Assembly (NCBI GenBank): GCA_030425185.1
Contig: JAUIAU010000011.1
Location: 114-64,113, forward strand
Direction: 5' to 3'
Length of the DNA: 64,000 nt
DNA from: Alphaproteobacteria bacterium
Lineage (GTDB): Bacteria > Pseudomonadota > Alphaproteobacteria > Rhodobacterales > Rhodobacteraceae
Shown here piece after piece: positions 1 to 34,848 of this stretch. The notes beneath the pieces were generated by a model, which saw only the letters and a list, made by a program, of their open reading frames with translations, had not been told where the DNA came from and did not search any database. Made by a program: the position numbers and the translations under genes. The first letter of the stretch is position 1. Each line of letters opens with the position of its first letter.

Positions 1-531
1 CCGCTGCTCGAAGCTGGGGCGGACGGCATGTTCATCCAGATGGTCGAGACGCCCGAGCAGGTCGAGGCGCTGATCGCCGCGATGAAGTTCCCGCCTGTCG
101 GACGCCGCAGCTATGGCGTGAACCGGGCCCATGGCTACGGCTTCGATTTCGACCGCTACATCACCGAGTGGAACGACAGCTCGACGCTGATCCTCCAGAT
201 CGAATCGATCACCGCGGTCGAGAACATCGACAAGCTTCTCGCCTATCCGGACGTCGATGGCGTGATGGTCGGACCCTATGACATCTCTGGCTCCCTCGGC
301 GTTCCGGGCCAGACGAACCACCCGAAGGTGCGCGAGGCCGGCCGCAAGGTCGTCGAGGCCGCCGCGCGGGCCGGCAAGTCCTGCTGCACGCAGATCGCGG
401 ACGTGACGCCGGAGCGCGTTCAGGACGCCTTTGACCAGGGCTTCACCTTCGTCATCCTGGGCAGCGACCTGTTCATCCTGTGGAAATGGGCGGAGACCAT
501 GCGCGGCGTGATCGCGGAGGCCAAGGCATGA
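1..531 (+). CDS. HpcH/HpaI aldolase family protein (5' partial; frame open from window start)
   Basis: Frame 1 is open from base 1 (PLLEAGADGMFIQMVET...). Motifs 'ILQIESITAVENIDKLLAYPDVDGVMVGPYDISGSLG' are typical of class II pyruvate aldolases. Stop overlaps the next ATG (ATGA 528-531). Confidence 0.88.
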   Translation, partial: PLLEAGADGMFIQMVETPEQVEALIAAMKFPPVGRRSYGVNRAHGYGFDFDRYITEWNDSSTLILQIESITAVENIDKLLAYPDVDGVMVGPYDISGSLGVPGQTNHPKVREAGRKVVEAAARAGKSCCTQIADVTPERVQDAFDQGFTFVILGSDLFILWKWAETMRGVIAEAKA

Positions 532-1304
532 GCTACGTCGACGACCTGTTCGGCATCGCCGGACGCGCCGCGATCCTGACCGGCGCGGGCGGCCATCTCT
601 GTGGCGAGATGGCCCGGGCGCTGGGGCGGGCGGGCTGCAAGGTTGCCGTGACGGACCTGCGTGTCGAGAAGGCCGAAGCCGTTGCGGCCCAGATCACGGA
701 TGCAGGCGGCGCGGCCATCGGCATCGCGCTCGACGCCACCAGCAAGGCCGATTTCCAGGCCGCGCTGGCGCAGGCAGTCGAGGCCTTCGGGCCGGTGTCG
801 ATCGCCGTCAACGGCGCCGGCATCAATGCACCGACGCCCTATCTCGACATCGAGCTCGACGACTGGAAACGGGTGCTCGACAGCCAGATCAACGCGACCT
901 TCCTCGGCTGCCAGGTGTTCGGGGCCCACATGCTCGAGCAGGGCAAGGGCAGCATCATCAACATCAGCTCGGCCAGTGCCGGTCCGCCCCTGTCGAAGGC
1001 CTTCGCCTATTCGGTGGCCAAGGCGGGGATCAAGAACCTGACCCAGAACCTCGGCCGCGAATGGGGCACGACCGGCGTGCGGGTGAACGCGATCCGTCCC
1101 GGCTTCTTCCCGACCGAATGGAACCGCAAGAACTTCATCACCCCCGAGCGCGAGGCCGCGATCCTCGGCCATACGGCGATGAAGCGCTATGGCGAGCCGG
1201 AGGAACTGACCGGAGCCCTGATCTGGCTGGCGTCCGATGCGTCGGGCTTCGTGACCGGGGCCGAAATTGCCGTCGACGGCGGCTTCTCTGCGATGACGAT
1301 CTGA
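528..1304 (+). CDS. SDR family oxidoreductase (gluconate 5-dehydrogenase/mannonate oxidoreductase-like)
   Basis: TGAGGHLC nucleotide-binding motif, NGAG, YSVAK catalytic YxxxK, VDGG C-terminus. Coupled to the aldolase by an ATGA overlap. Confidence 0.9.
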   Translation: MSYVDDLFGIAGRAAILTGAGGHLCGEMARALGRAGCKVAVTDLRVEKAEAVAAQITDAGGAAIGIALDATSKADFQAALAQAVEAFGPVSIAVNGAGINAPTPYLDIELDDWKRVLDSQINATFLGCQVFGAHMLEQGKGSIINISSASAGPPLSKAFAYSVAKAGIKNLTQNLGREWGTTGVRVNAIRPGFFPTEWNRKNFITPEREAAILGHTAMKRYGEPEELTGALIWLASDASGFVTGAEIAVDGGFSAMTI

Positions 1305-1340
1305 TCTTGCGGCGGGGTCGCTGTGCGGCCCTGCCCCTCG

Positions 1341-1859
1341 TCACCCCGCGGCGGACTGCGACACCAGGATCGCTTCGCACAGTTCCCGCACGGCACCGTT
1401 GCCACCACGCGCCCGCGTCTGGAAGCGGCAAACCTCCTTCACTTCCGGACGGCCATCGGGCACCGTGACCGGCATGCCCACGGCCCGCAGCAGGCTCAGG
1501 TCGTTGACATCGTCCGCGATGTGGGCGGCATCCGCGAACCCGAGGCCGAGGTCGTTCAGGATCGCCCCCAGGGTGACGGATTTGTCCTCGATCCCCGTGT
1601 GGCAGAAATCGACGCCCAGATCACGCGCGCGGATTTCGATGTAGCGTGTGCGGCTCTGGCTGATGAAGGCCAGCTTCACGCCCGCCGCCTGCACCCGCTT
1701 CAGACCCATCCCGTCCAGCACGTGAAACCGGGCAAACCGGGTGCCATCATCCGCGTAGTACAGACCCCCGTCCGTCAGCACGCCGTCGATGTCACAGCAC
1801 AGGAGCTTCACCCGCGCGAGGTCGGGACAGGGCGTGACGAACGGCGGCTCGTGACTCAT
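1341..1859 (-). CDS. KdsC-like HAD phosphatase (3-deoxy-octulosonate 8-phosphate phosphatase family)
   Basis: CDIDGVLTDG (DxDGV) motif, ADDVND acidic motif, and GGNGAVRELCE C-terminal motif typical of KdsC/YrbI. ATG at 1859. Confidence 0.85.
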   Translation of the reverse strand: MSHEPPFVTPCPDLARVKLLCCDIDGVLTDGGLYYADDGTRFARFHVLDGMGLKRVQAAGVKLAFISQSRTRYIEIRARDLGVDFCHTGIEDKSVTLGAILNDLGLGFADAAHIADDVNDLSLLRAVGMPVTVPDGRPEVKEVCRFQTRARGGNGAVRELCEAILVSQSAAG

Positions 1860-1863
1860 CGGC

Positions 1864-2640
1864 TCAGAGCCCGGCGGCCAATACACGGGACAGAAGGCCC
1901 GCCTGAACCGGGTCGGTCTCGATCCGTTCGAGGACGATGTCCGCCTCGTGCGGCTCGTTGACGGAGGGCAGCGACTCGCCCACCGGCACCGAGTAGAGAC
2001 GGCGCCCATGCTCGATCAGGCGCATCTGCTCGATCGACTCGGCCCGCTCGATGGGGGTCTGGGCGGCACCGGCAACCTCCAGCAGCACGTCGCGGCGGAA
2101 CGCGAACAAGCCGAGAATCTTGCGGACATAGCCCTGCTGCACGTCGAACGGCGCATGCGAGGGCGACCGACGGAAGCAGTAGAGGATACGATCATCCGGC
2201 GCGACGGCGCATTTCACGAAGGAATGCCGGTCGAGTTCCTCGGCCGCCTCGATCGGCCCGGTCACGTTCCACAGGTCGCCGTCAGGCTTCGCGGCCATGC
2301 CCGCCAGCAGCGCCTCGACATGCGCTGGCAGCAGAAGCGGCTCGTCGCCCTGCAACAGGATGACGTTGTCGCAGTCGATCCCCTTCACCGCCTCGGCGAT
2401 CCGGCTGGTGCCGTTGGTGTGGGTGTTCGCCGTGCGCACCACGTGACCGCCGTGGCGGGCGATCTCGGCCTCGATCTCGTCATCGCAGGTCGCGACGATC
2501 ACGTCGTCCAGCCCGTCGGCCATCAGGGCCCGACGGCGGACATGCTCGACCATCGGCAACCCGGCGAAGGGAAACAGGATCTTCCGGGGAAACCGGACGG
2601 AGGCGAGGTGGCAAGGGATGATGCCGACGGTTCGGGACAA
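1864..2640 (-). CDS. KdsB-like cytidylyltransferase (CMP-ulosonate synthetase family), TTG start
   Basis: IIPCHLASVRFPRKIL N-terminal motif, HTNGTSRIAE, LQGDEP, IEQMRLIEHG, SVNEPHE; a divergent KdsB-type pattern. Confidence 0.85.
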   Translation of the reverse strand: MSRTVGIIPCHLASVRFPRKILFPFAGLPMVEHVRRRALMADGLDDVIVATCDDEIEAEIARHGGHVVRTANTHTNGTSRIAEAVKGIDCDNVILLQGDEPLLLPAHVEALLAGMAAKPDGDLWNVTGPIEAAEELDRHSFVKCAVAPDDRILYCFRRSPSHAPFDVQQGYVRKILGLFAFRRDVLLEVAGAAQTPIERAESIEQMRLIEHGRRLYSVPVGESLPSVNEPHEADIVLERIETDPVQAGLLSRVLAAGL

Positions 2641-2652
2641 GATGGGCCGCCT

Positions 2653-3396
2653 TTACTGGGGGAACACGCCGCAATCGACGTTGACGCACTGGCCGGTCAT
2701 GGCGCTGGCCCGGTCCGAGGCCAGCCAGACCGCGTAGTTGCCGACCTCCTCGCCGGTGGGCAGGTGGTCCAGCGCGGCATTCGCCTTGCGGAAGTTTTCG
2801 AGGAAGGTCTCGGGATCGCCCTTGGCCGGGCTGTCCTCGCGCGACAAGGCTTCGATAAGGCCGTCGGTCCGCACCAGAACGGGGCAGATCGCGTTGACGC
2901 GGATCCCCTGCGGACCGAGCTCCTTGGCGAGGCTCTGGGTCAGCCCGTTCATCCCGAACTTGGTGGCACAGTAGACCGAGTTGTTGGCCGAGCCGCGCTT
3001 GGCCGCCATCGACGAGATGTTGATGATCGAACCGCCCTGGCCCAGCGCGGACGCCGCAGCCTTGCACCCCCAGAAGGCCCCCTTGAGGTTCGTGGCCATC
3101 ATGTCGTCGAAGAAGGCATCCGTGATCTCGCCGATGGGCGACCACGCGGAATAGCCCGCGTTGTTCACGTAGGCGTCCAGCGTGCCCATCTCGGCCGCGA
3201 CCTCGGTCAGACGGACGTGATCGGCCTCGTTACGGACATCTATCGGGACGAAGCGCACGCGTCCGGGGGCCAGGTCCTCGACCCCGTTCGGATTGCGCGA
3301 TCCAACGACCACCGAATAGCCGTCGCGCAGGAAGCACTCGGTCAGCGCCCGCCCGATGCCCCGGTTGCCCCCGGTGATGACCACGACCTTGTCCAT
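2653..3396 (-). CDS. SDR family oxidoreductase
   Basis: TGGNRGIG, NNAG, YCATK (YxxxK), NVDCG C-terminus. Confidence 0.9.
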   Translation of the reverse strand: MDKVVVITGGNRGIGRALTECFLRDGYSVVVGSRNPNGVEDLAPGRVRFVPIDVRNEADHVRLTEVAAEMGTLDAYVNNAGYSAWSPIGEITDAFFDDMMATNLKGAFWGCKAAASALGQGGSIINISSMAAKRGSANNSVYCATKFGMNGLTQSLAKELGPQGIRVNAICPVLVRTDGLIEALSREDSPAKGDPETFLENFRKANAALDHLPTGEEVGNYAVWLASDRASAMTGQCVNVDCGVFPQ

Positions 3397-3417
3397 GCTG
3401 CCCCCATTGCCCGCCGT

Positions 3418-5319
3418 TCAGGCGTCCGCTCCTTCGCGCCCGGCATCCAGCGCCGGTTCGGGCAGGTCTTGGCAGAATCCGTCCACGACTTCCAGAAAGA
3501 CTTCGCGCACGGCTCGGGCGTTGCCGGCCCGGACGGCCTGTTCGAGGTGCTTCACCGCCGAAGCGGTTTCGAACTCGGACAGATGCGCTTCATGGGCGCA
3601 CATGATCTTCGGATGCGGGGTTCCGGCAAGGTTCGAGCCGAGCAGAAGTTCCTCGTAGAGCTTCTCGCCCGGCCGCAATCCGGTGAAGCGGATCTCGATG
3701 TCGCCTTCGGTTCCACCCGGCTGCCGCTCCTGAAGCCCGCTCAGAGCAATCAGGTTACGGGCGACATCGACGATCTTCACCGACTCCCCCATGTCGAGCA
3801 CGAAGACGTCCCCGCCCTTCGCAAAGGTCCCGGCCAGCAGCACCAGTTGCACGGCCTCGGCGATGGTCATGAAGAAGCGTGTCACCTCGGGATGCGTGAC
3901 GGTCACGGGGCCGCCGCGTGCGATCTGCTCACGGAAAAGCGGGATCACCGATCCGGAGGAGTCGAGCACGTTCCCGAAACGCACCATCGCGAAGGTGGTT
4001 CCGCGGCTCCGCGTCTGCAGGTCCTGAATCACAAGTTCCGAGAAGCGCTTGGAGGCCCCCATCACGTTGGTCGGCCGGACCGCCTTGTCGGTCGAGACGA
4101 GGATGAACTGGCGCACCCCGGCCGCCTCGGCGGCGAGGGCGAGCGTGCGGGTCCCGAGGGCATTGTTCGCCGCCCCGGCGACCTCGTTCGATTCGATCAG
4201 CGGCACGTGCTTGTAGGCGGCCGCGTGCAGGATGATGCCCACCTCGTGGGTCAGGATGACCTGCTTCACGTGGGCCGCGTCGGCCACGGACCCCAGCACG
4301 GGGACCAGGCGCGCGGAAGACTGGAGCCCCTCGAGTTCGCGGTGGATCTGGTAGAGGGCCACCTCGCTGATGTCGAAGAGGACCAGCACCCGCGCCCCGG
4401 CCTTGACGATCTGCCGGCAGAGCTCGGACCCGATCGAGCCGCCGGCCCCGGTCACCATCACCACCTGCCCGGCGTAGGCGGCCTTGATCTCGGGAAGGTA
4501 GATCTTGCGGGTGCTGCGCCCGAGCAGGTCCTCCGCGGTGACCGCGCGCAACTGCGCCGACAGGGACCCGCTTCCGATGAAGTTCTCGAAATGCGGCAGG
4601 GTCAGGAGCTTGCGATTGTATCCCTGCAGGTGCCGGAGGATTTCGCGCCGACGCTCGCGCGGCAACGACGGGATCGCCAGGACGATCTTGTTCACCTCGT
4701 GACGACGCAGCAGCGCCTCGATCCGCTCGGGCGCGTGCACCTTCAGCGCTCCGTAGCGCATGTTCTGCTTCTTCGGGTCGTCGTCCACGAAGGCGACGGC
4801 AAGGGTATCGTCCGACCGGTCCAGGGCCCGTGCCAGCTGCTGCCCGGCCGCCCCGGCGCCGTAGATCAGAACGCGGTCCCGCGGGCGGCTGAGTTCCTCG
4901 GACTGGGTGAAGAGCCATCCCACCGCTATTCGCAGACCGGCCATCAAAACAAGCAGAAGCAATCCAAAGATGAACGGAACCGACCGAGGCGTCGGATCCT
5001 CGAAGGTCAGGTTCAGGATGAACCCGACGATGGACAGCGCGGCACTGAGCAGCGCGATCTTGAGGATGCTTCCCGGCGCAAGGCTCCGGATCGCGATCCA
5101 GGGCAGTTCCATCATGACCGACAGGAACCCGCCCGCGATCAGCCAGAACATGACCAGCAGACCGAGTCCCGGGATGTAGAGGTCCGCCCACGGGTCGCCC
5201 ATCCGCAGGTAGAGCGCGAGCCAGGCTGCGACGACGATGAGACCTGCGTCCGCGACCACCACCAACATGATCTTGCCCGAGCGATCCATGTCGGTTAACC
5301 TACGCAGCATCTGGTTCAT
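3418..5319 (-). CDS. Polysaccharide biosynthesis protein CapD/WbpM/PglF family (membrane-anchored UDP-HexNAc 4,6-dehydratase)
   Basis: N-terminal TM segments, YGAGAAG CoA-binding-like domain, TGAGGSIGSELCRQI, HAAAYKHVP, STDKAVRPTNVMGASKR, RFGNVLDSSGSVIP, GLRPGEKLYEEL. Confidence 0.93.
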   Translation of the reverse strand: MNQMLRRLTDMDRSGKIMLVVVADAGLIVVAAWLALYLRMGDPWADLYIPGLGLLVMFWLIAGGFLSVMMELPWIAIRSLAPGSILKIALLSAALSIVGFILNLTFEDPTPRSVPFIFGLLLLVLMAGLRIAVGWLFTQSEELSRPRDRVLIYGAGAAGQQLARALDRSDDTLAVAFVDDDPKKQNMRYGALKVHAPERIEALLRRHEVNKIVLAIPSLPRERRREILRHLQGYNRKLLTLPHFENFIGSGSLSAQLRAVTAEDLLGRSTRKIYLPEIKAAYAGQVVMVTGAGGSIGSELCRQIVKAGARVLVLFDISEVALYQIHRELEGLQSSARLVPVLGSVADAAHVKQVILTHEVGIILHAAAYKHVPLIESNEVAGAANNALGTRTLALAAEAAGVRQFILVSTDKAVRPTNVMGASKRFSELVIQDLQTRSRGTTFAMVRFGNVLDSSGSVIPLFREQIARGGPVTVTHPEVTRFFMTIAEAVQLVLLAGTFAKGGDVFVLDMGESVKIVDVARNLIALSGLQERQPGGTEGDIEIRFTGLRPGEKLYEELLLGSNLAGTPHPKIMCAHEAHLSEFETASAVKHLEQAVRAGNARAVREVFLEVVDGFCQDLPEPALDAGREGADA

Positions 5320-5731
5320 GTCGGTGTTCGTCCGTTTCAGAATCGCCCGTTCCGAGCTGGGTTGGCGTCAGCATCACCAAATTCGATGGTAATACTACGA
5401 AGCGTCCAGCCTCATTGTCGGTCAAGCCAAGTGTAGACTAGTCGTGGTGTATGCGGAAAGCGAGACCTTCTGGTAGGGCATTTGGCGCACGTTTGATGGT
5501 CTGTTGCAAGAGGCTCTTAGGGGACTCATCTCGTGAATCCAGCTTGCTACCCTTTAGACGTCGCCAAACAGATACCTCCGACCCACATACAAGACCTAGA
5601 ACTGGTAGGCCTGTAGTAATACTCTGAAGCACCGAGGCTCGCTGAAGATCAATTGGTCGGTACGCGATCGCCTGCAGTCACCGTAAGACTGGTTCAATGC
5701 CAACGTTAACTGTAAGCGCGACGGCGTGGCC

Positions 5732-7297
5732 CTATGCGGCGAGGCTTGGCGGCTGTGTCTGCCGCCAAGGCATGAGGTCTTCGATGCGGGATCGTGGGTG
5801 GCCGTTGAGGATGGCGCGCAGGGTAGCGGCGAGGTAGTCGACGGGGTTCACGCCTGACAGCTTGCAGGTTGCGACGAACGACGCGAGCATGGCCCAGTTC
5901 TCGGCGCCGATCTCGTTTCCGGCGAAGAGGGCGTTCTTCCGGGTCAGCGCGATCGGACGGATCTGGTTCTCGACCGGGTTGGTATCCAGCTCGAGGGTGC
6001 CATCCTCGAGGAAGCGGACCAGGCCGGACCAGTGCCCAAGGGTGTAGCGGATATCCTCGGCGAGTTGGGACTTCTGCGGGATGCGCGAGAGCTGGGTCTC
6101 CAGCCAGGGCTTGAGCGCGGAAATGATCGGGGCGGCGTGCTCACGTCGGGCGGCGAGGCGGACGGCAGGGGCGTGGCCGCGCACGGTCTTCTCGGTCTGA
6201 TAGAGCAACGCAATCTGGCGCAGCATCTCCTCGGCGATGGGCGAGCCGTCGCTCTCGACGCGTTTGACGAAGCGGCGACGGACATGGGTCCAGCAATAGA
6301 CCAGCTGCCACGGCCCCTCTTCGCGCGGGATCTCGGTCAGGGCGTTGTAGGACTGGTAGGCGTCGCATTGCAGGAACCGGCCGCGGTATCCCGCCAGGAA
6401 CTTCAGCGGATGCTCCCGTCCCCGACCGGGGGCGTAGTGGAACAGCACAATGGGCGGGCCGGCACCGCCATGTCCGCGATCGTCGGAGACGACGGCCCAG
6501 AAGTAGCCGCTCTTGGTGGCCTTCCGGCCCGGGTCCAGCACCGGCGCGCGGGTCTCGTCGACGAAGATCCTGTCGGCGGCGCGCAGATGGGCCTTCATGT
6601 GGTCGATCACGGGCATCAGGTGGAAGCAGGCGCGGCCGACCCAGTTGCCGAGCGTGCCGCGGTCGAGGCTGAGCCCCTGCCGCTCGAAGATCCCGGCCTG
6701 GCGGTAGAACGGCAGGTGGTCGCCGAACTTCGAGACGATGATCCACGCGATCAGCCGTTCGGTGGGCAGGCCGCCCGGCACGACATGCTCGGGGGCATGC
6801 GCCTGCACCACGGCCTGCGAACAGCGCCGACAGGCGTATCTCGGACGCCGCGTCACTAGAACCTGGAACTGCGCCGGGATCACGTCGAGCCGCTCGGAGA
6901 CATCCTCTCCGATCCGGGCCATCTCGCCACAGCCGCAGGGGCAAAGGGTGCTGGCGGGCTCGATCACGCGCTCGACCCGGGGCAGATGCGCCGGTAGATG
7001 CCCGCGGTTGCGCGCGGGCTTGCGCGGTTCATCCCCGCGCGCCCGTTGCAACGCTGCTTCCGCCTTCTCCTGGGCAGCCTCCAGCACGCCTTGGGCCAGT
7101 TCAGCGTCCTCGAGCGGCAGATTGAACTGGTCGGGCGACAACTTCTCGGAACTCTTGCCAAAGCGTTCGCGCTGCGCGGCGCGCAAGATCCCCTCCAGCC
7201 GGCGGTTGGCCTCCTGCACCTCCACGAGCGCCGCCTCGACCTCCGCGAGGCGGGCCTTCAGGTGAGCATTCTCGCGGCTGAGCGTGGCGGCATCCAT
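5732..7297 (-). CDS. tnpC: IS66 transposase TnpC
   Basis: Leucine-zipper N-terminus (FGKSSEKL), CPCGC zinc motif, SKFGDHLPFYRQ, ADRIFVDET, LQCDAY, CWTHVRRRF, TNPVENQIR. Confidence 0.95.
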   Translation of the reverse strand: MDAATLSRENAHLKARLAEVEAALVEVQEANRRLEGILRAAQRERFGKSSEKLSPDQFNLPLEDAELAQGVLEAAQEKAEAALQRARGDEPRKPARNRGHLPAHLPRVERVIEPASTLCPCGCGEMARIGEDVSERLDVIPAQFQVLVTRRPRYACRRCSQAVVQAHAPEHVVPGGLPTERLIAWIIVSKFGDHLPFYRQAGIFERQGLSLDRGTLGNWVGRACFHLMPVIDHMKAHLRAADRIFVDETRAPVLDPGRKATKSGYFWAVVSDDRGHGGAGPPIVLFHYAPGRGREHPLKFLAGYRGRFLQCDAYQSYNALTEIPREEGPWQLVYCWTHVRRRFVKRVESDGSPIAEEMLRQIALLYQTEKTVRGHAPAVRLAARREHAAPIISALKPWLETQLSRIPQKSQLAEDIRYTLGHWSGLVRFLEDGTLELDTNPVENQIRPIALTRKNALFAGNEIGAENWAMLASFVATCKLSGVNPVDYLAATLRAILNGHPRSRIEDLMPWRQTQPPSLAA

Positions 7298-7366
7298 GCC
7301 CCGGAGTGAATCACGCCGGTGCCGTTCCAGCCAGCAAAAACGGGGACTTCGCGTGCATCCATGCGA

Positions 7367-7723
7367 TCAGCCTGCGACCAGTGGCCGCCGCGCTCGTTCC
7401 GGTCGGACCAGCCGCCAGTCCAGTCCCTCGAACAGCGCCGCCAGCTGCGCCGAGGACATCCGCATCACCCCGTCCCGCACCTGCGGCCAGACAAATTTGC
7501 TGCCCTCGAGGCGCTTGTGAACCAGCACCATCCCGGTCTGGTCCCAGACCAGAAGCTTGATGCGGTCCGCACGCTTTGCCCGGAAGACGAAGACCGCCCC
7601 GCAGAACGGGTCCAGCCCGCACATCTCCTGCACCGCAAGCGCAAGGCCGTCGATCCCCTTGCGGAAGTCCACCGGGCGCGTCGCCACGTAGACCTTCACC
7701 GGCCCAGCTTGACCGAGCATCAT
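7367..7723 (-). CDS. tnpB: IS66 accessory protein TnpB
   Basis: PVDFRKGIDGL, FVFRAKRADRIKLLVWDQTG, KRLEGSKFVWP motifs. Confidence 0.93.
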   Translation of the reverse strand: MMLGQAGPVKVYVATRPVDFRKGIDGLALAVQEMCGLDPFCGAVFVFRAKRADRIKLLVWDQTGMVLVHKRLEGSKFVWPQVRDGVMRMSSAQLAALFEGLDWRLVRPERARRPLVAG

Positions 7724-8145
7724 GACGTCGAGGCCCGTGCCGCCCGGATCGCCCGCGTCAGCAGCCCCTCGTCGGCGTCGGTCCCGGCACGGATCACGAC
7801 ATCCCCGATGACGATCTCCACGCCGGTCACGGCCGAGGTCTCCGCCGGTATCTCTGCCCCGGCAGCGGCGCTCTCGACGACCAGCTCGGCAAACATCGGC
7901 AGCGCCGCCACGCTCTCGGGCACGACAAGCTGCCCCGTCCGCAGCTTCCTCCGCCAGTCATAGATCTGCCAGCGCGTCGTCCCGTGCCGTTGCGCAACAT
8001 CCGTCACCGACGCCCCGGGCACCAGGCTCTCCGCCGCAATCCGCGCCCGCTCCGCCTTCGTGCGCAGCCGGCGCCCGGACGGCCCCTCGATCACCTCAAG
8101 CCGAGAAACCCTGCCTTCCCTTGGGCTGTCCAAATGGACGCCCAC
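7720..8145 (-). CDS. tnpA: IS66 accessory protein TnpA (HTH); start uncertain (GTG 8145, alternatively 8184 or 8133)
   Basis: GRRLRTKAERARIAAESLVPGASVTDVAQRHGTTRWQIYDWRR helix-turn-helix. Stop overlaps the tnpB start. Confidence 0.88.
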   Translation of the reverse strand: MGVHLDSPREGRVSRLEVIEGPSGRRLRTKAERARIAAESLVPGASVTDVAQRHGTTRWQIYDWRRKLRTGQLVVPESVAALPMFAELVVESAAAGAEIPAETSAVTGVEIVIGDVVIRAGTDADEGLLTRAIRAARASTS

Positions 8146-8433
8146 TTTGCCGTCTCGTTCCAAGCCCAAACCTCCAACGCCCATGCGCGCGGAGATTGGC
8201 CCGTTCAGCTCACTAACGGCAGGAGGGGGGCGGCGTCGCGCTTACGGTTAACTGGGATTACATGCCGCGAGGCAGGCGTGGCCCCAAGCAGTCGCTGGCC
8301 ATGAGTACCAAGTAGGGCCGTTGAGTGAGACACGCAGGTTGCAAGACTTAAGCCATCCTGCACGGCCAAGCCACGCTCGACATGCCTGACACGGAGGCCT
8401 TGGGATAAGTCTTTCCAAGGTAGGGGCACTCTA

Positions 8434-8668
8434 GGTGTTTGATCCCATGGTCTGATGGTGCGATCCGTTCGCTTGAATTGAGGGACGCCTTATTGGACAG
8501 TTACTCTTCAGCTGCGCCACGAACACGCACGCCTTCAGAGCCGCAATACAGCGATCGCAAGCTTCGACCGCGGAGCTGCGCCGGGAGCTCGGCATCAATC
8601 CGAAGACGGTCGCAAAGTGGCGCACGCGGCAATCGGTCGAGGATCATAAGACGGGACCGAGCACCTAA
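8434..8668 (+). pseudogene. IS481-family remnant: left end plus truncated transposase N-terminus
   Basis: GGTGTTTGATCCCATGG end sequence at 8434. From 8492 the frame reads (I)GQLLFSCATNTHAFRAAIQRSQASTAELRRELGINPKTVAKWRTRQSVEDHKTGPST*, matching the IS481 transposase N-terminal HTH, with ATT where ATG is expected and an early TAA. Confidence 0.8.
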
Positions 8669-9213
8669 CGCCCCCCACGCGCGCGGACCCAGTCCCCAAG
8701 CCGTCTGCGCAGGCGGCTCGGACGCCGCAGCGCCCTGTCGCATCCCCAGCCCAGCAGGGCGCCGGCCACGACCTGCAGCAGGTCGTGCCAGCCGCTGGCA
8801 ATCCGGCTTGCCCCCGTTACGCCCGCTGCCAGCAGGACCACGCCCTGCGCCACCGGATGCCCCACAAGGCAGGTCTGGACCAGCGACGAGGCCCCGAAGA
8901 CCGCGGTGGCGGTATGCCCGGACGGGAACCCCTGGAGGCCGCCGTTCGGGCGCTCGTTGATCGGCGTGTCGCCCAGCGCCTGCTTGGTGCCGTGCAACGC
9001 CGTGAGCATGACAAGGTAGCGGACAAGGTACTCCGGCCCCGAGCCGTTCATCGCCTCGCACCCCCAGGCCAGCAGCGGCAGCGCGATCTGGAAGCGGGAG
9101 CCGATCTTCTCAGCCGCGGGCTCGTGCGGGCCGAGCGCGACGATCACCGCGAGGACCGCCAGGAGGGCCCGGACGCGCCAGATCATCGGAAGTCTCGGAA
9201 ACCGCACGCTCAC
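8665..9213 (-). CDS. PAP2-family membrane phosphatase (LpxE-like); start GTG 9213 or ATG 9186
   Basis: K..NERP, GFPSGHT and SRIASGWH motifs of the PAP2 catalytic triad; hydrophobic segments. Confidence 0.82.
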   Translation of the reverse strand: MSVRFPRLPMIWRVRALLAVLAVIVALGPHEPAAEKIGSRFQIALPLLAWGCEAMNGSGPEYLVRYLVMLTALHGTKQALGDTPINERPNGGLQGFPSGHTATAVFGASSLVQTCLVGHPVAQGVVLLAAGVTGASRIASGWHDLLQVVAGALLGWGCDRALRRPSRLRRRLGDWVRARGGR

Positions 9214-9280
9214 CTCGGCCCTCACATGCCCCACCGGTGCCGGAAGAAGACCGCGTCGTAGGGAATAATGCAAACAGGGT

Positions 9281-27846: not shown

Positions 27847-30297
27847 TTGGCCGATCCTGAGCCCCTCGCAGGGGTGTGGGAAGGGGATACGGCCGTGGGT
27901 GGTCTCATCAATGCTGGCGCCGTGTTCGGCGACGTGGTCGACTCCGGTCTGCCGCTCCGCGACCTCGGCGCGGCGCTGTCCGAGTCGAAGGTGCTCGCCG
28001 CCAGCGCCGATGGCAGCGGCTACGTCGTGGTCACTCTGGCCGAGGGCGGGACGCCCTCGGTGGCCGCGCTCGACACAGTGCCGCTGTCCGGTCTGCCGTC
28101 CGGTGTTCCCTCCCGGGTCACGATCGCGGGGACCGAGCATGTCGTCATCCCCGGCGCACCGGGCACTGGCTATCTGCTGTTGTCCCTGAGTGGCGACGAC
28201 GATCTGCGCATCGACTCCGGGGCCGCGCGGGCGGGGCAGAGTGCCGCGGTGGTCTCCAGTGGCGGCACATCGTTCGTCTATCTCGCGAGCGGGGACAGCG
28301 CAGGCCTGCGCCTGTTCCGGCTCGACGCCGGACAATCTGCGACCGAGATCCCGCTGGCCGGGATCGCGGCCGGCGCAACCCTGCCGCCCGGGGCCGTGCT
28401 GCTGCGGGCGGGACCGTCCGCTTCCCCCAGCCTGATCGCCGTCGATGCAGGGGCGGACACGATCCACAGCTTCCACCTCGGCCCTGACGGCATCCCGGAA
28501 CTGGCCAGCCGGATCGGCGCGGCGGACGGCCTCGGGATCAACGCCCCGCGGGCCGCGACGGCGGTCGAGGTTGCCGGAACCGCCTATCTAGTCGTCGCCT
28601 CGACCGAGAGCCACGCGCTCAGCGTGATCTCTGTCGCGGCAGACGGCCGGCTGAGCGCCACCGACCATGTGCTGTCCCAGACCGGGATCGATCTCGCCGA
28701 TGTGGGGGCGGTGACCTCCACCCTCGTGAACAGGCGCGCCGTGATCGCCGCGGCGGGGTCCGGCGGTGCGGTCTCGCTGTTCGAACTGGTGCCCGACGGC
28801 ACGCTCGTGCACCTGGCCACGCGGGCCCCCTCCCCCGACTGGCCCGCCGGCCATGTGAGCGACCTGGCGCTCAGCGTCGTCGGCAGCGAAGTGCAGCTTC
28901 TGGCCAGCTGCCCGGACCAGTCCGACAGCTACCTGCTGCGCATCCCGCTAGACACTATCGCGGCCCCGGTGACCGGGGGTGCCGGGTCAGACACCCTGAC
29001 CGGAGGGCCTGCACGCGACCTGCTCAGCGGCGGCGCCGGGAATGACACGCTGGCCGGTGGCTGGAACGACGATATCCTGATGGACGGCACAGGCAGCGAC
29101 ACGATGACCGGCGGGCTCGGGGCCGATCTGTTCGTGCTCGCCCGCGACGGGCAGAGCGACACCATCCTCGACTTCCAGCCGGGCATCGATCGGCTCGACC
29201 TGTCGCGGTGGTGGATGCTGTCGAACGCGACCCAGCTCACGATTACCCCGACGGCAGAAGGGGCCGACCTGACCTTCGGCGACGAAACGGTGCACGTCAT
29301 CAGCTACGGGCATGTCCCGCTCGGGGCGGCGGACTTTCCGACCGGCACGATCCTGAACCTGACCCGCCCGCCCCTGATGGTCGACCAGCCGGATGCCGCC
29401 CCGGCGGACTTTTCCGCGCGCGACGTCCTGATCGGCACGGCGGGACCCGACGTCCTGCGCGGCTACGGCGGGAACGACCGGCTCGAGGGTGGCGGCGGCA
29501 GCGACGAGCTGCGCGGCGGCGATAACGACGACGAGCTGATCGGCGGGGACGGCGACGACTTCGTGTTCGGGGACGGCGGCCAGGACAACATCGCGCTCGG
29601 CAACGGCGACGACGAGGGGCACGGCGGCGACGGGCACGACCAACTCGGCGGCGGCGCAGGGCGCGACATGCTGTTCGGCGATGACGGCAACGACACGCTC
29701 GGCGGCGGCCCGGATGACGACTGGATCGACGGCGGGCGTGGCAACGACGTGGCCAGCGGCGGCTACGGCGACGACATCGTGCGCGGTGGTGACGGGGACG
29801 ATACGCTGGCGGGCAGCTTTGGTGCCGATATCGTCGAGGGCGGCGCGGGCAACGACTCGCTCGGCGGCGGGGTCGGCATCGACATCCTGCGCGGCGGCGA
29901 CGGCAATGACGACGCGGGCGGCGGCGACGGCGACGACTGGCTTTACGGCGACGACGGAAACGACTTCCTCGCCGGGGGCAACGGGGACGACCGGCTGTTT
30001 GGTGGCGCGGGTGACGACAAACTGAACGGGGGTGCCGGAAACGACGTCCTGACCGGCGACGCGGGGGCCGACCAGTTCATCATCCCGGACTGGACGGCAG
30101 GCGAGACGGACCTGCTCGTCGATTTCACGAAAGGCGAGGACACCATCCGGGTCCCCTGGATCAGCGGGGCCTTCAACGCGCTCACGATCACCGATCCCGG
30201 CGACGGACAGCTGGCGATTACCCATGGCGGCCACACGATCCTGGTCGACGGCCTCGATGGCGACTGGCTCGACATCCACGACTTCCTCTTCGTCTGA
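27847..30297 (+). CDS. Large RTX (GGxGxD Ca-binding) protein with N-terminal beta-propeller-like region; start uncertain (TTG)
   Basis: Two blocks of nonapeptide repeats (about 28960-29130 and 29430-30080) with DTILDF/DLLVDF-type spacers; C-terminus typical of T1SS cargo; no Sec signal. Confidence 0.85.
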   Translation: MADPEPLAGVWEGDTAVGGLINAGAVFGDVVDSGLPLRDLGAALSESKVLAASADGSGYVVVTLAEGGTPSVAALDTVPLSGLPSGVPSRVTIAGTEHVVIPGAPGTGYLLLSLSGDDDLRIDSGAARAGQSAAVVSSGGTSFVYLASGDSAGLRLFRLDAGQSATEIPLAGIAAGATLPPGAVLLRAGPSASPSLIAVDAGADTIHSFHLGPDGIPELASRIGAADGLGINAPRAATAVEVAGTAYLVVASTESHALSVISVAADGRLSATDHVLSQTGIDLADVGAVTSTLVNRRAVIAAAGSGGAVSLFELVPDGTLVHLATRAPSPDWPAGHVSDLALSVVGSEVQLLASCPDQSDSYLLRIPLDTIAAPVTGGAGSDTLTGGPARDLLSGGAGNDTLAGGWNDDILMDGTGSDTMTGGLGADLFVLARDGQSDTILDFQPGIDRLDLSRWWMLSNATQLTITPTAEGADLTFGDETVHVISYGHVPLGAADFPTGTILNLTRPPLMVDQPDAAPADFSARDVLIGTAGPDVLRGYGGNDRLEGGGGSDELRGGDNDDELIGGDGDDFVFGDGGQDNIALGNGDDEGHGGDGHDQLGGGAGRDMLFGDDGNDTLGGGPDDDWIDGGRGNDVASGGYGDDIVRGGDGDDTLAGSFGADIVEGGAGNDSLGGGVGIDILRGGDGNDDAGGGDGDDWLYGDDGNDFLAGGNGDDRLFGGAGDDKLNGGAGNDVLTGDAGADQFIIPDWTAGETDLLVDFTKGEDTIRVPWISGAFNALTITDPGDGQLAITHGGHTILVDGLDGDWLDIHDFLFV

Positions 30298-34005: not shown

Positions 34006-34848
34006 TCATGCGGCACGCCGGGCCGGTTCATCGACCGGGCGCAGATCGAGGTCGAGGCCGAACTCCTCGCGGATCTCGTCGCGCTGGCGTCCGAACAGGG
34101 CCTCGGCCCACGCGACGCGCTCGGCGGTTCGGCCGGGATCGGGAAGCGCCGTCTTGTCGAGAGCGAGGCGCAGCATCCCCCGGATCACCTCCGGCGGCAG
34201 CCCGGCCGTGACAGCGCGCGCGATCTCGTCGCAATCCCACATCCGCAGCGAGGGGTTGGCCTTGTGGATCGGCACGTTCCAGTCCAGCGCGACGCCGGGC
34301 AGAACCTGCGACACCACGGTCCGGATGTCTCCGTGCCTGGCCACCGTCAGCGTGGCCTCCGGCAGCACCCGGCGCCACGCGCGCAAGTACCCGGTGATCG
34401 TCAGGCTGCGCGCGCGGTCCGCCGCGAACCGTTCGAAACTGCGCCCGTCATGGCAGGCCCCCTCGGCGATGTAGCGGTCGAGGTTCTGCTTCAGGAACTG
34501 GGAATAATCCCCGAAAAGGAAGCCGCTGAAGGGGCGCAGGAAGACAAGGACATGAAGGCGCGTCCCGGTGCCCGATACGGCGTCCGCCAGGCGCACGGCT
34601 TGCTGGGCCTGCCCGAAATAGTCCTCGTGCGACAGGACCAGCGTGGACTGCGTCCCGAAGAGGCGGTCCAGCCTGTCCTGGTCCAGCCCGCCCAGGGTCA
34701 CGGGCGTGCCGGGATGCCCGCCACCGCCGGGATGCGGATAGGTCACGCCGGACGCGTTCAGGGCGGCGCGGTTGCCCAGCAGCACACGTTGCAGATAGGT
34801 CGAGCCGCATTTCGGCGAGCCGACATGAAGGATGAGCGTCCGGGTCAT
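34006..34848 (-). CDS. Sulfotransferase-like P-loop protein
   Basis: LILHVGSPKCGSTYLQ resembles the PAPS-binding loop; VLSHE and VFLRP strand motifs; ATGA overlap with the upstream glycosyltransferase. Confidence 0.65.
   Translation of the reverse strand: MTRTLILHVGSPKCGSTYLQRVLLGNRAALNASGVTYPHPGGGGHPGTPVTLGGLDQDRLDRLFGTQSTLVLSHEDYFGQAQQAVRLADAVSGTGTRLHVLVFLRPFSGFLFGDYSQFLKQNLDRYIAEGACHDGRSFERFAADRARSLTITGYLRAWRRVLPEATLTVARHGDIRTVVSQVLPGVALDWNVPIHKANPSLRMWDCDEIARAVTAGLPPEVIRGMLRLALDKTALPDPGRTAERVAWAEALFGRQRDEIREEFGLDLDLRPVDEPARRAA

What the first reader, a model, noticed from the sequence alone, without database searches (positions are those of the whole stretch)
1..3396. Possible aldolase-based pathway for an unusual CMP-activated ulosonic acid
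Seen: two convergent units meet at 1304/1341: aldolase + SDR on plus, and CapD-SDR-KdsB-like-KdsC-like on minus. No PEP-dependent KdsA/NeuB synthase is in the window. Established: HpcH/HpaI class II aldolases condense pyruvate with aldehydes to give 2-keto-3-deoxy acids; KdsB-type enzymes CMP-activate 2-keto-3-deoxy acids; KdsC dephosphorylates their phosphates. Inference: the cluster may make a non-Kdo, non-sialic ulosonate for a surface glycan, with the two SDRs setting oxidation state or stereochemistry.
Basis: partly seen in the sequence, partly recalled or inferred. Interest (0 to 1): 0.7.

Follow-up and report, generated by a model that had tools for sequence, protein, structure and literature searches.

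The report
Widespread cassette for an unknown CMP-ulosonic acid
The genes are real and belong to a widely conserved, uncharacterised gene set that most likely makes a CMP-activated Kdo-like acidic sugar for a cell-surface glycan, but a PEP-dependent synthase of the KdsA family sits just outside the window, so the aldolase does not replace it.

Summary
**Observation.** Confirmed. The window holds HpcH aldolase (cut by the window start) and an SDR on the plus strand. These converge on CapD, SDR, KdsB-like and KdsC-like on the minus strand.

**The "no KdsA" premise.** It holds only inside the window. An identical public contig extends 4.7 kb to the left. It shows a KdsA-family synthase and a small CBS protein in the same operon, directly upstream of the aldolase.

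**Not ordinary Kdo supply either.**
- The order KdsA*-CBS-aldolase-SDR-SDR-KdsB* recurs in at least 14 phylum-level groups, including Leptospira interrogans, Prochlorococcus, SAR11, Actinomycetota and a CPR bacterium.
- KdsA* carries KDCRS where true Kdo-8-P synthases have KANRS (42 of 42 copies).
- KdsB* fails all five curated NCBIfam KdsB cut-offs. It has Asn where KpsU has the metal ligand Asp225 (67 of 67).
- In most other copies a GT-B-fold protein of unknown family follows KdsB*.

**Variants elsewhere.** One lacks the aldolase and SDRs. Another lacks KdsA* and has FSA/transaldolase-like, SIS and HAD phosphatase genes around the aldolase.

**Best model.** KdsA* builds a non-Kdo ulosonate phosphate, KdsC-like removes the phosphate, the aldolase and two SDRs rework it, and KdsB* activates it. 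The sugar and the aldolase's exact role are unresolved. No functional study was found.

The parts
1..531 (+). ALD: class II HpcH/HpaI pyruvate aldolase, residues 89-264 only. The first 88 residues, a CBS-pair gene and the KdsA-like synthase gene lie left of base 1.
   Evidence: Pfam PF03328, E 4e-22. The full 264-aa gene is at L001 5211-6005. The metal ligands Glu156 and Asp182 lie inside the window. The catalytic Arg78 and His53 lie in the off-window part. All four are invariant in 12 orthologues.
528..1304 (+). SDR-A: classical short-chain dehydrogenase, translationally coupled to ALD.
   Evidence: adh_short_C2, E 5e-53. The best NCBIfam match is D-mannonate oxidoreductase at 246 bits, below its cut-off of 281. 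The nearest solved structures are gluconate 5-dehydrogenases. It lies directly downstream of ALD, or after an intervening HAD or methyltransferase gene, in nearly all related loci.
1305..1340 (.). Convergent intergenic gap with a G+C-rich hairpin (stem about 1311-1335). It is a possible two-way terminator.
   Evidence: Fold energy -24.7 kcal/mol, z = -2.2 against shuffles. The consensus terminator scan found nothing because there is no T run.
1341..1859 (-). KdsC-like HAD-IIIA phosphatase (172 aa).
   Evidence: TIGR01670 YrbI family: 129 bits, above the cut-off of 107. It is below the KdsC equivalog (130 against 208) and the Kdn-9-P phosphatase equivalog (122 against 180).
1864..2640 (-). KdsB*: KpsU/KdsB-like cytidylyltransferase (258 aa).
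   Evidence: CTP_transf_3, E 2e-28. It is below all five NCBIfam KdsB cut-offs. The nearest solved structure is E. coli KpsU, 1GQ9. Asp225 is replaced by Asn, Arg10 by His, and the His of the KH(V/I)G motif by Ile.
2653..3396 (-). SDR-B: classical short-chain dehydrogenase directly upstream of KdsB*.
   Evidence: adh_short_C2, E 3e-53. The nearest solved structures are acetoin and 2,3-butanediol dehydrogenases. The SDR-B then KdsB* adjacency is conserved in most loci.
3418..5319 (-). CapD/WbpM/PglF-like membrane-anchored nucleotide-sugar 4,6-dehydratase (633 aa). It is the first gene of the minus-strand unit and is not part of the conserved cassette.
   Evidence: Polysacc_synt_2, E 3e-113. Homologues of 41-54% identity lie near the cassette in only a few alphaproteobacterial loci.

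Best explanation
The locus is one copy of a widely transferred, uncharacterised cassette. It most likely makes a CMP-activated 3-deoxy-2-ulosonic acid that is related to Kdo but is not ordinary Kdo, for a surface glycan.

**Shown by sequence and synteny**
- The operon that the window cuts reads KdsA*, CBS, ALD, SDR-A.
- It converges on CapD, SDR-B, KdsB*, KdsC-like.

**Inferred pathway**
1. KdsA* is a metal-type Kdo-8-P synthase paralogue. It keeps the catalytic and PEP-binding residues but has a remodelled aldose pocket. It condenses PEP with an aldose phosphate, probably not arabinose 5-phosphate bound in the canonical way. Its CBS partner is the likely regulator.
2. The KdsC-like phosphatase removes the terminal phosphate.
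3. ALD is a class II pyruvate aldolase. It can only make or break the C3-C4 bond of a 4-hydroxy-2-keto acid, so it acts on the same ulosonate skeleton.
4. The two SDRs act on hydroxy-ketone or diol positions. Together with ALD they re-set stereochemistry or oxidation state. My preferred reading is C4 equilibration by retro-aldol and aldol, plus oxidation and re-reduction of a side-chain carbinol.
5. KdsB* couples the product to CMP.

In most other copies a GT-B-fold protein (U500) and a GT2 follow KdsB* and presumably transfer the sugar. This copy has neither nearby.

The identity of the sugar and the exact role of ALD are not determined.
For: **Flank.** L001 is identical to window 1-5741 and carries KdsA* (NF003543, 321 bits, above the cut-off of 242) and CBS directly upstream of ALD.

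**Synteny seeded on ALD.** Of 70 non-redundant genome loci, 67 have SDRs, 63 KdsB*, 48 U500 and 42 KdsA*. The gene order is fixed across at least 14 phylum-level groups.

**Synteny seeded independently on KdsA\*.** Of 50 metagenome loci with enough downstream DNA, 43 have ALD.

**KdsA\* is a dedicated paralogue.**
- It is 59-90% identical across phyla, mostly 63-73%, but only 45% identical to a canonical KdsA.
- KANRS is replaced by KDCRS in 42 of 42 copies.
- TDIH is replaced by SDFS, and the loop GG by TS.
- The Cys, His, Glu and Asp ligands are kept.

**KdsB\* differs from canonical KdsB.** It is below all five NCBIfam cut-offs. Asp225 is Asn in 67 of 67 type-1 copies.

**KdsA\* alone can feed KdsB\*.** Loci reading KdsA*, CBS, KdsB*, U500 exist without ALD or SDRs. 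Their KdsB* forms one clade nested inside the ALD-containing type.

**ALD is not redundant.** It is kept in every other KdsA*-containing lineage. There is only one cytidylyltransferase and one U500 per cassette.

**Other support.**
- ALD has intact catalytic residues.
- U500 has a GT-B fold: pLDDT 86, Foldseek E 2e-9 to MshA.
- There is a precedent for side-chain epimerisation of ulosonic acids by oxidoreductase pairs (PMC12053666).
Against: - No enzyme was assayed and no glycan structure is linked to the cassette.
- The order of steps is inferred from gene order and family chemistry only.
- Variants without KdsA* within 10 kb have FSA/transaldolase-like, SIS and HAD phosphatase genes flanking ALD. 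Some of these also lack the SDRs. There ALD looks like the primary synthase.
- ALD keeps nearly the same invariant residues in both types. It may therefore be a synthase here too.
- A retro-aldol C4 epimerase role has no precedent in this family that I could find.
- The functional meaning of KANRS to KDCRS rests on my own knowledge of Kdo-8-P synthase structures, not on a test.
- This copy has no transferase gene nearby, so the fate of the sugar in this organism is unknown.
Confidence: 0.5

Rival explanations
1. Aldolase-first route. ALD is the enzyme that builds the activated ulosonate, from pyruvate plus an aldose phosphate. KdsC-like removes the phosphate, the SDRs tailor the product and KdsB* activates it. 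KdsA* is an auxiliary or parallel PEP-driven source of the same or a related compound.
For: - Cassettes exist with ALD, a HAD phosphatase and KdsB but no KdsA-type gene within 10 kb. They often have FSA/transaldolase-like and SIS isomerase genes just upstream of ALD. They occur in Planctomycetes, Omnitrophota and Elusimicrobia.
- Roseicyclus-type loci read ALD, SDR, SDR, KdsB*, U500, KdsC without KdsA*.
- ALD's invariant residues are nearly the same in both types.
Against: - In this locus a KdsA-family synthase is co-transcribed with ALD.
- KdsA*, CBS, KdsB*, U500 cassettes work without ALD.
- All KdsA*-less cassettes seen are in bacteria that should have a housekeeping KdsA. The three monoderm or CPR copies all carry KdsA*. 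This sample is small.
- Pyruvate aldolases are reversible and are rarely used for net synthesis.
Confidence: 0.25
2. Two sugars. KdsA* with KdsC-like makes one ulosonic acid, and ALD with the SDRs makes a different 2-keto-3-deoxy acid. Both go into the same glycan, and one promiscuous KdsB* or a housekeeping KdsB activates them.
For: KdsA* and ALD modules each occur alone with KdsB*. Each is therefore sufficient to supply a substrate.
Against: There is one cytidylyltransferase and one U500 per cassette. The gene order is tight, with ALD and the SDRs placed between the synthase and the activating enzyme.
Confidence: 0.12
3. Ordinary extra Kdo supply, like kpsF and kpsU in E. coli capsule loci, next to an unrelated sugar-acid catabolic pair of aldolase and dehydrogenase.
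For: KdsA* passes one NCBIfam KdsA equivalog cut-off. KdsC-like passes the YrbI family cut-off. The aldolase and SDR-A resemble catabolic enzymes such as RhmA, GarL and gluconate 5-dehydrogenase.
Against: - ALD and the SDRs are linked to KdsB* in 63-67 of 70 loci across many phyla. These include bacteria without LPS.
- No dehydratase, kinase or transporter of a catabolic pathway is present.
- KdsA* and KdsB* carry invariant changes at canonical substrate or metal positions.
Confidence: 0.06

Closest known systems
Kdo pathway (KdsD, KdsA, KdsC, KdsB) and its capsule paralogues KpsF and KpsU of E. coli group 2 capsule loci
   Same: The same three enzyme families are present: a DAHP_synth_1 synthase, a YrbI-type phosphatase and a CTP_transf_3 cytidylyltransferase. 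KpsU (1GQ9) is the nearest solved structure to KdsB*. The CBS protein matches the C-terminal half of KpsF (TIGR00393, positions 162-268).
   Different: - There is no SIS isomerase domain.
- The synthase has KDCRS instead of KANRS.
- The cytidylyltransferase fails all five NCBIfam KdsB cut-offs and has Asn at Asp225.
- An aldolase and two SDRs are inserted between synthase and activation.
- The cassette also occurs in Actinomycetota and a CPR bacterium, which have no LPS.
Kdn pathway of Bacteroides thetaiotaomicron (Kdn-9-P synthase, Kdn-9-P phosphatase, CMP-Kdn synthetase)
   Same: The logic is the same: a PEP-dependent ulosonate-phosphate synthase, then a YrbI-family phosphatase, then CMP activation. 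The KdsC-like protein scores 122 bits against the Kdn-9-P phosphatase model.
   Different: The Kdn-9-P synthase belongs to the NeuB family (my own knowledge), not the KdsA family. The phosphatase score is below that model's cut-off of 180. The Kdn pathway has no aldolase or SDRs.
Side-chain epimerisation of nonulosonic acids by oxidoreductase pairs (EpaA/EpaB and AciE in Acinetobacter baumannii)
   Same: Two NAD(P)-dependent oxidoreductases are encoded next to a CTP_transf_3 cytidylyltransferase function. They convert one ulosonic acid into its epimer (PMC12053666). This is the model for SDR-A and SDR-B here.
   Different: Those enzymes act on 5,7-diamino nonulosonic acids made by NeuB-type synthases. 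One partner is an aldo-keto reductase fused to the cytidylyltransferase. No aldolase is involved.
Catabolic class II pyruvate aldolases of the HpcH/HpaI family (YfaU/RhmA, GarL, HpaI)
   Same: The fold and the catalytic Arg, His, Glu and Asp are shared. YfaU (2VWS) is the nearest solved structure, E 3e-36.
   Different: - ALD scores 136-144 bits against equivalog cut-offs of 369-441.
- It forms a tight orthologous group, 48-99% identical across phyla, with its own invariant residues: CLPRPxSH, DG, GPYDIS.
- It is always found in glycan biosynthesis loci, never with dehydratases of sugar-acid catabolism.

Membership tests
Kdo-8-phosphate synthase (KdsA) | DAHP_synth_1 TIM-barrel fold with the PEP and metal site residues: Cys in GPCxIES, His in DxxHS, Glu in ETH, Asp in SD | tested here: met
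   PF00793, E 1.5e-60. The residues align with Aquifex aeolicus 1FWN and Brucella 3FS2. The gene lies off the window at L001 6408-7301.
Kdo-8-phosphate synthase (KdsA) | KANRS motif that binds arabinose 5-phosphate (its role is from my own knowledge of the enzyme family) | tested here: not met
   KDCRS in 42 of 42 cassette copies. KANR(S/T) is present in three solved KdsA structures and in the canonical KdsA of L015.
Kdo-8-phosphate synthase (KdsA) | Curated NCBIfam equivalog scores | tested here: inconclusive
   NF003543: 320.7 bits, above 242. TIGR01362: 308.9, below 314. NF009109: 255, below 457.
CMP-Kdo synthetase (KdsB/KpsU) | CTP_transf_3 fold with the Arg15, Lys19 and QGDEP (Asp98) nucleotide and metal site | tested here: met
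   PF02348, E 2e-28. R15, K19 and D98 are invariant in the cassette family.
CMP-Kdo synthetase (KdsB/KpsU) | Second metal ligand Asp225 and the His of the KH(V/I)G(I/L)Y motif | tested here: not met
   Position 225 is Asn in 67 of 67 type-1 and 7 of 7 type-0 copies. The His position is Ile or Val.
CMP-Kdo synthetase (KdsB/KpsU) | Curated NCBIfam KdsB cut-offs | tested here: not met
   Scores against cut-offs: 191.7/255, 180.4/193, 156.4/234, 117.9/281, 107.9/155.
CMP-Kdo synthetase (KdsB/KpsU) | Activity with Kdo and CTP | not testable with these tools
   Needs an enzyme assay.
KdsC / YrbI-type ulosonate-phosphate phosphatase | HAD-IIIA fold with the DxDGV motif, and the family score | tested here: met
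   TIGR01670: 129.2 bits, above 107. The motif reads CCDIDGVLTDGG. The KdsC equivalog (130 against 208) and the Kdn-9-P phosphatase equivalog (122 against 180) are not met, so the substrate is open.
HpcH/HpaI class II pyruvate aldolase | Fold plus the catalytic Arg, the His and the Glu/Asp metal ligands | tested here: met
   PF03328, E 8.5e-29 for the full protein. H53, R78, E156 and D182 are invariant in the 12 orthologues aligned. R, E and D are also conserved in both cassette types among the 70 copies. They align with YfaU.
HpcH/HpaI class II pyruvate aldolase | Membership of a characterised subfamily (HpaI, GarL, RhmA) | tested here: not met
   Scores of 144, 139, 138 and 136 bits against cut-offs of 369, 407, 393 and 441.
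Nonulosonic acid (NeuB-type) pathway | NeuB-family synthase in the locus | tested here: not met
   No NeuB homologue in the window or in the L001 flank.

The most novel reading that the evidence does not exclude
The cassette makes a so far undescribed CMP-activated ulosonic acid, either a Kdo stereoisomer or a sugar with a different chain length. In this pathway a class II pyruvate aldolase is a biosynthetic enzyme. It would act either as a PEP-independent ulosonate-phosphate synthase or as a retro-aldol C4 epimerase working behind a specialised KdsA paralogue. The sugar would decorate surfaces of many abundant aquatic bacteria and of pathogenic Leptospira.
Probability: 0.45. Interest if true: 0.75.

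Novelty: new variant of a known kind. Interest (0 to 1): 0.6.

Why it matters
- **Chemistry.** CMP-activated ulosonic acids (Kdo, sialic, legionaminic and pseudaminic acids) are key surface and immune-recognition sugars. Their known routes all start from a PEP-dependent synthase alone. A route that also needs a pyruvate aldolase and two dehydrogenases would add new chemistry and probably a new sugar.
- **Abundance.** The cassette is found in SAR11, Prochlorococcus, Nanopelagicaceae, Flavobacteriia and Planctomycetes. It also lies in a glycan gene cluster of Leptospira interrogans. [quoted passage not shown]
- **Annotation.** Genome pipelines will call KdsA* and KdsB* plain Kdo enzymes. The KDCRS motif and Asn225 give simple markers to tell them apart.

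Tried and rejected
- **Literature.** Six full-text searches were run: HpcH with cytidylyltransferase or ulosonic, kdsA/kdsB/CBS, Kdo aldolase, KANRS, heptulosaric/hexulosonic, and Leptospira rfb. A seventh was rejected for syntax. None gave a functional study of the cassette.
  - The SugarBase preprint reports new CMP-sugars but no aldolase.
  - A cyanophage paper lists kdsA and kdsB only.
  - Leptospira papers only list the annotations.
- **Plasmids and phages.** tblastn of ALD against plasmids gave only ordinary HpaI-type genes below 40% identity. KdsA* against phages gave only distant hits of 28-43%.
- **Cluster member look-up.** It gave no organism names.
- **U500 and other unknown genes.** Pfam gave nothing for U500, c20, c24, c28 or the protein precomputed as PFTS_polysacc. 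The local Pfam copy lacks PF27878 and PF27889.
- **Gene fusions.** The apparent aldolase-HAD long ORF in L059 is an out-of-frame artefact of high G+C.
- **Promoter and terminator scan.** No consensus sites were found.
- **Rearrangement by IS66.** I considered that IS66 had removed a transferase gene. I rejected this because the element has terminal inverted repeats and a 7-of-8-base target duplication, so it is a simple insertion.
- **Product identity.** I considered Dha, Kdn, Ko, 4-epi-Kdo and a C10 or C11 sugar. None can be chosen from sequence.

Full report
**1. What is in the window**

ORF listing and family scans confirm the six genes.

| Gene | Coordinates | Strand | Key evidence |
|---|---|---|---|
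| HpcH/HpaI aldolase (ALD), last 176 residues | 1-531 | + | Gene runs off the window start |
| SDR-A | 528-1304 | + | ATG overlaps the ALD stop |
| KdsC-like HAD phosphatase | 1341-1859 | - | TIGR01670, 129 bits (cut-off 107) |
| KdsB-like cytidylyltransferase (KdsB*) | 1864-2640 | - | CTP_transf_3 |
| SDR-B | 2653-3396 | - | adh_short_C2 |
| CapD/WbpM-like dehydratase with membrane N-terminus | 3418-5319 | - | Polysacc_synt_2 |

- The two units converge on a 36-base gap with a G+C-rich hairpin.
- Codon-position G+C marks all six as real genes, and the region is not compositionally odd.
- No KdsA or NeuB homologue lies anywhere in the 64 kb.

**2. The missing flank**

The exact KdsB* protein is on four public contigs. 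One of them, L001 (10.5 kb), is 100% identical to window 1-5741 and continues 4.7 kb to the left. Reading leftward from the window it carries:
- the full 264-aa aldolase;
- a 141-aa CBS-pair protein that matches the C-terminal half of KpsF (TIGR00393);
- a 297-aa DAHP_synth_1 protein that scores 321 bits on the KdsA equivalog NF003543 (cut-off 242).

The four genes KdsA*, CBS, ALD and SDR-A overlap or abut, so they form one operon. Beyond them lie a divergent LpxL-like lipid A acyltransferase, an EamA transporter and leuB.

**3. The right-hand border**

An IS66 element (5712-8245) lies 393 bases from the 5' end of capD.
- It carries three transposase genes and 29-base terminal inverted repeats.
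- The flanking 8 bases match at 7 of 8 positions, so it is a simple insertion.
- Next come a PAP2 phosphatase, petABC and housekeeping genes.

The island is thus eight genes long. It has no glycosyltransferase next to it. Queries of the U500, GT2 and other recurrent cassette families found no homologue in the window beyond a weak GT2-like hit near 36.6-36.9 kb.

**4. A conserved cassette**

The aldolase has 1483 relatives with E of 1e-10 or better. The best 120 are 66-90% identical although they come from distant taxa.

A scan of one genome per species gave 133 relatives, of which 80 loci were kept. After removing duplicates, I clustered the ORFs of 70 loci.

| Family | Loci (of 70) |
|---|---|
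| SDRs | 67 |
| KdsB* | 63 |
| Unknown ~500-aa protein (U500) | 48 |
| KdsA* | 42 |
| CBS | 36 |

Four cassette layouts recur.

| Type | Gene order | Where seen |
|---|---|---|
| 1 (the window's type) | KdsA*, CBS, (NanM-like O-methyltransferase), ALD, SDR-A, SDR-B, KdsB*, U500, GT2, (KdsC) | Alpha- and Gammaproteobacteria, Desulfobacterota, Nitrospirota, Bacteroidota, Leptospira, Prochlorococcus, SAR11, Calditrichota, Nanopelagicaceae, another actinomycete, a CPR Uhrbacterium |
| 1b | ALD, SDR, SDR, KdsB*, U500, KdsC; no KdsA* within 10 kb | Roseicyclus, Tabrizicola, Devosia |
| 2 | (GFO oxidoreductase, methyltransferase, SIS, FSA/transaldolase-like), ALD, HAD phosphatase, (SDR, SDR), KdsB, 2-hydroxyacid dehydrogenase | Planctomycetes, Omnitrophota, Elusimicrobia; some copies lack the SDRs |
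| 0 | KdsA*, CBS, KdsB*, U500; no ALD or SDRs | Metagenome contigs (see below) |

An independent scan was seeded on KdsA*.
- It matched more than 600 metagenome stretches.
- Of 50 loci with enough downstream DNA, 43 have ALD.
- Seven lack it. Five of these read KdsA*, CBS, KdsB*, U500 (type 0). The other two have a more distant cytidylyltransferase of about 30% identity.
- The type-0 KdsB* proteins form one clade nested inside type 1.

The full type-1 cassette is also in Leptospira interrogans CP092166. Published work on Leptospira lists such annotations upstream of the rfb locus but gives no function.

**5. Not ordinary Kdo enzymes**

*KdsA\**
- It is about 50% identical to solved Kdo-8-P synthases and keeps the Cys, His, Glu and Asp site.
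- All 42 cassette copies read KxCYDKDCRS where three solved enzymes and a canonical KdsA in locus L015 read KSSFDKANRS.
- TDIH becomes SDFS, and the loop GG becomes TS.
- From my own knowledge of the family, KANRS holds arabinose 5-phosphate. This suggests a different aldose phosphate or binding mode. That is inference.

*KdsB\**
- It is closest to E. coli KpsU but falls below all five NCBIfam KdsB cut-offs.
- Position 225, which is Asp in KpsU, is Asn in 67 of 67 type-1 copies.
- It has lost the His of the KH(V/I)G motif.

*ALD*
- It keeps the catalytic Arg and the Glu/Asp ligands of YfaU.
- It shares almost all family-specific invariant residues between types 1 and 2. It therefore probably catalyses the same reaction in both.

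*SDRs and U500*
- SDR-A resembles gluconate 5-dehydrogenase, KduD and UxuB-type enzymes. SDR-B resembles acetoin reductases. Both groups act on hydroxy-ketone and diol pairs.
- U500 models confidently (pLDDT 86) as a GT-B fold with an N-terminal helical extension. It is a probable transferase.

**6. How it most likely works**

*Shown*
- The gene content and the operon structure.
- The conserved order.
- The sequence signatures.

*Inferred*
1. KdsA*, regulated by CBS, makes an ulosonate phosphate from PEP.
2. KdsC-like removes the phosphate.
3. ALD and the SDR pair rework the sugar.
4. KdsB* activates it.

*Reasons for putting KdsA\* first*
- Type-0 cassettes show that KdsA* alone can feed KdsB*.
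- ALD is nevertheless kept in every other KdsA* lineage, so it is not redundant.
- One cytidylyltransferase and one U500 per cassette fit one product.

ALD chemistry is limited to the C3-C4 bond of a 4-hydroxy-2-keto acid. Its role is therefore either C4 equilibration of the KdsA* product or pyruvate-dependent synthesis of the same skeleton. Type 2 favours the second reading, because there a phosphatase follows ALD directly and no KdsA* is near. I cannot decide between the two readings. I give the sequential model 0.5 and the aldolase-first model 0.25.

The sugar's chain length and configuration are unknown.

**7. Comparison and novelty**

The system works like the Kdo and Kdn pathways, joined to the oxidoreductase-pair epimerisation known for nonulosonic acids. 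It fails defining features of KdsA (KANRS) and of KdsB (Asp225 and the curated cut-offs). It also adds an aldolase that no described CMP-ulosonate pathway has.

I found no functional description in the searchable literature. I rate it a new variant of a known kind.

The window's organism is an uncultured marine alphaproteobacterium. It is 99% identical to a MAG and 91% to a Dinoroseobacter MAG at the aldolase.

Noticed in passing
window 5712-8245: Complete IS66-family element. It carries three transposase genes (7720-8184, 7367-7723 and 5732-7297, all on the minus strand) and 29-base terminal inverted repeats. The flanking 8 bases (CGTTAACT and GGTTAACT) match at 7 of 8 positions. It is a simple insertion between capD and a PAP2 gene. 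The public contig L001 breaks exactly here.
   Followed up: yes
window 8665-9273 (-) and L001 7487-8356: The island is flanked by a PAP2-family phosphatase on the right and an LpxL-like lipid A late acyltransferase on the left. This hints that the sugar may go into LPS core or lipid A rather than a capsule. In Roseicyclus the cassette sits beside waaL-like, lptFG and msbA-like genes.
   Followed up: partly
L005-L088, e.g. L038 15107-16699; L174 10001-11587: A conserved protein of about 500 aa without Pfam domains (U500) follows KdsB* in 48 of 70 loci. It models as a GT-B fold with an N-terminal helical extension. It has a weak NCBIfam hit to TIGR04326, a surface carbohydrate biosynthesis protein family. 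It is absent from this window.
   Followed up: partly
L112, L113, L142, L147, L153, L173: Short cassette reading KdsA*, CBS, KdsB*, U500 without the aldolase or the SDRs. Its KdsB* proteins form one clade nested within the aldolase-containing type.
   Followed up: partly
L056, L060-L064, L066-L068, L071-L075, L078-L088: Second cassette type in Planctomycetes, Omnitrophota and Elusimicrobia. Its order is GFO oxidoreductase, methyltransferase, a divergent GmhA-like SIS protein, an FSA/transaldolase-like protein, ALD, HAD phosphatase, (SDRs), KdsB, 2-hydroxyacid dehydrogenase. No KdsA-type gene lies within 10 kb.
   Followed up: partly
L174 (Leptospira interrogans CP092166, 1866829-1888415); L038 (L. 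noguchii sv. Panama): Pathogenic Leptospira carry the full cassette together with FkbM and other methyltransferases and a PhyH-like dioxygenase. Published comparisons list the aldolase and cytidylyltransferase annotations in a serovar-linked region upstream of rfb, without a function.
   Followed up: partly
L015 5589-6425 / L091 5646-6479: In one Dinoroseobacter lineage a canonical KANRS-type KdsA without a CBS partner lies inside the locus, between the SDR-B, KdsB*, KdsC unit and the ALD, SDR-A unit. Whether it is the housekeeping copy is not known.
   Followed up: no
window 27847-30297 (+) and 34845-37205 (-): An RTX calcium-binding repeat protein (816 aa) and a 786-aa protein with WsaF-type rhamnosyltransferase domains lie about 25-32 kb from the cassette. 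This may be a second glycan or secreted-protein locus.
   Followed up: no
L007, L089, L174 and many type-1 loci, upstream of KdsA*: A protein of about 545 aa, precomputed as Pfam PF27878 (PFTS_polysacc), often precedes KdsA*, frequently with hexapeptide acyltransferases and methyltransferases. This Pfam family is missing from the local Pfam copy, so its description could not be read.
   Followed up: no
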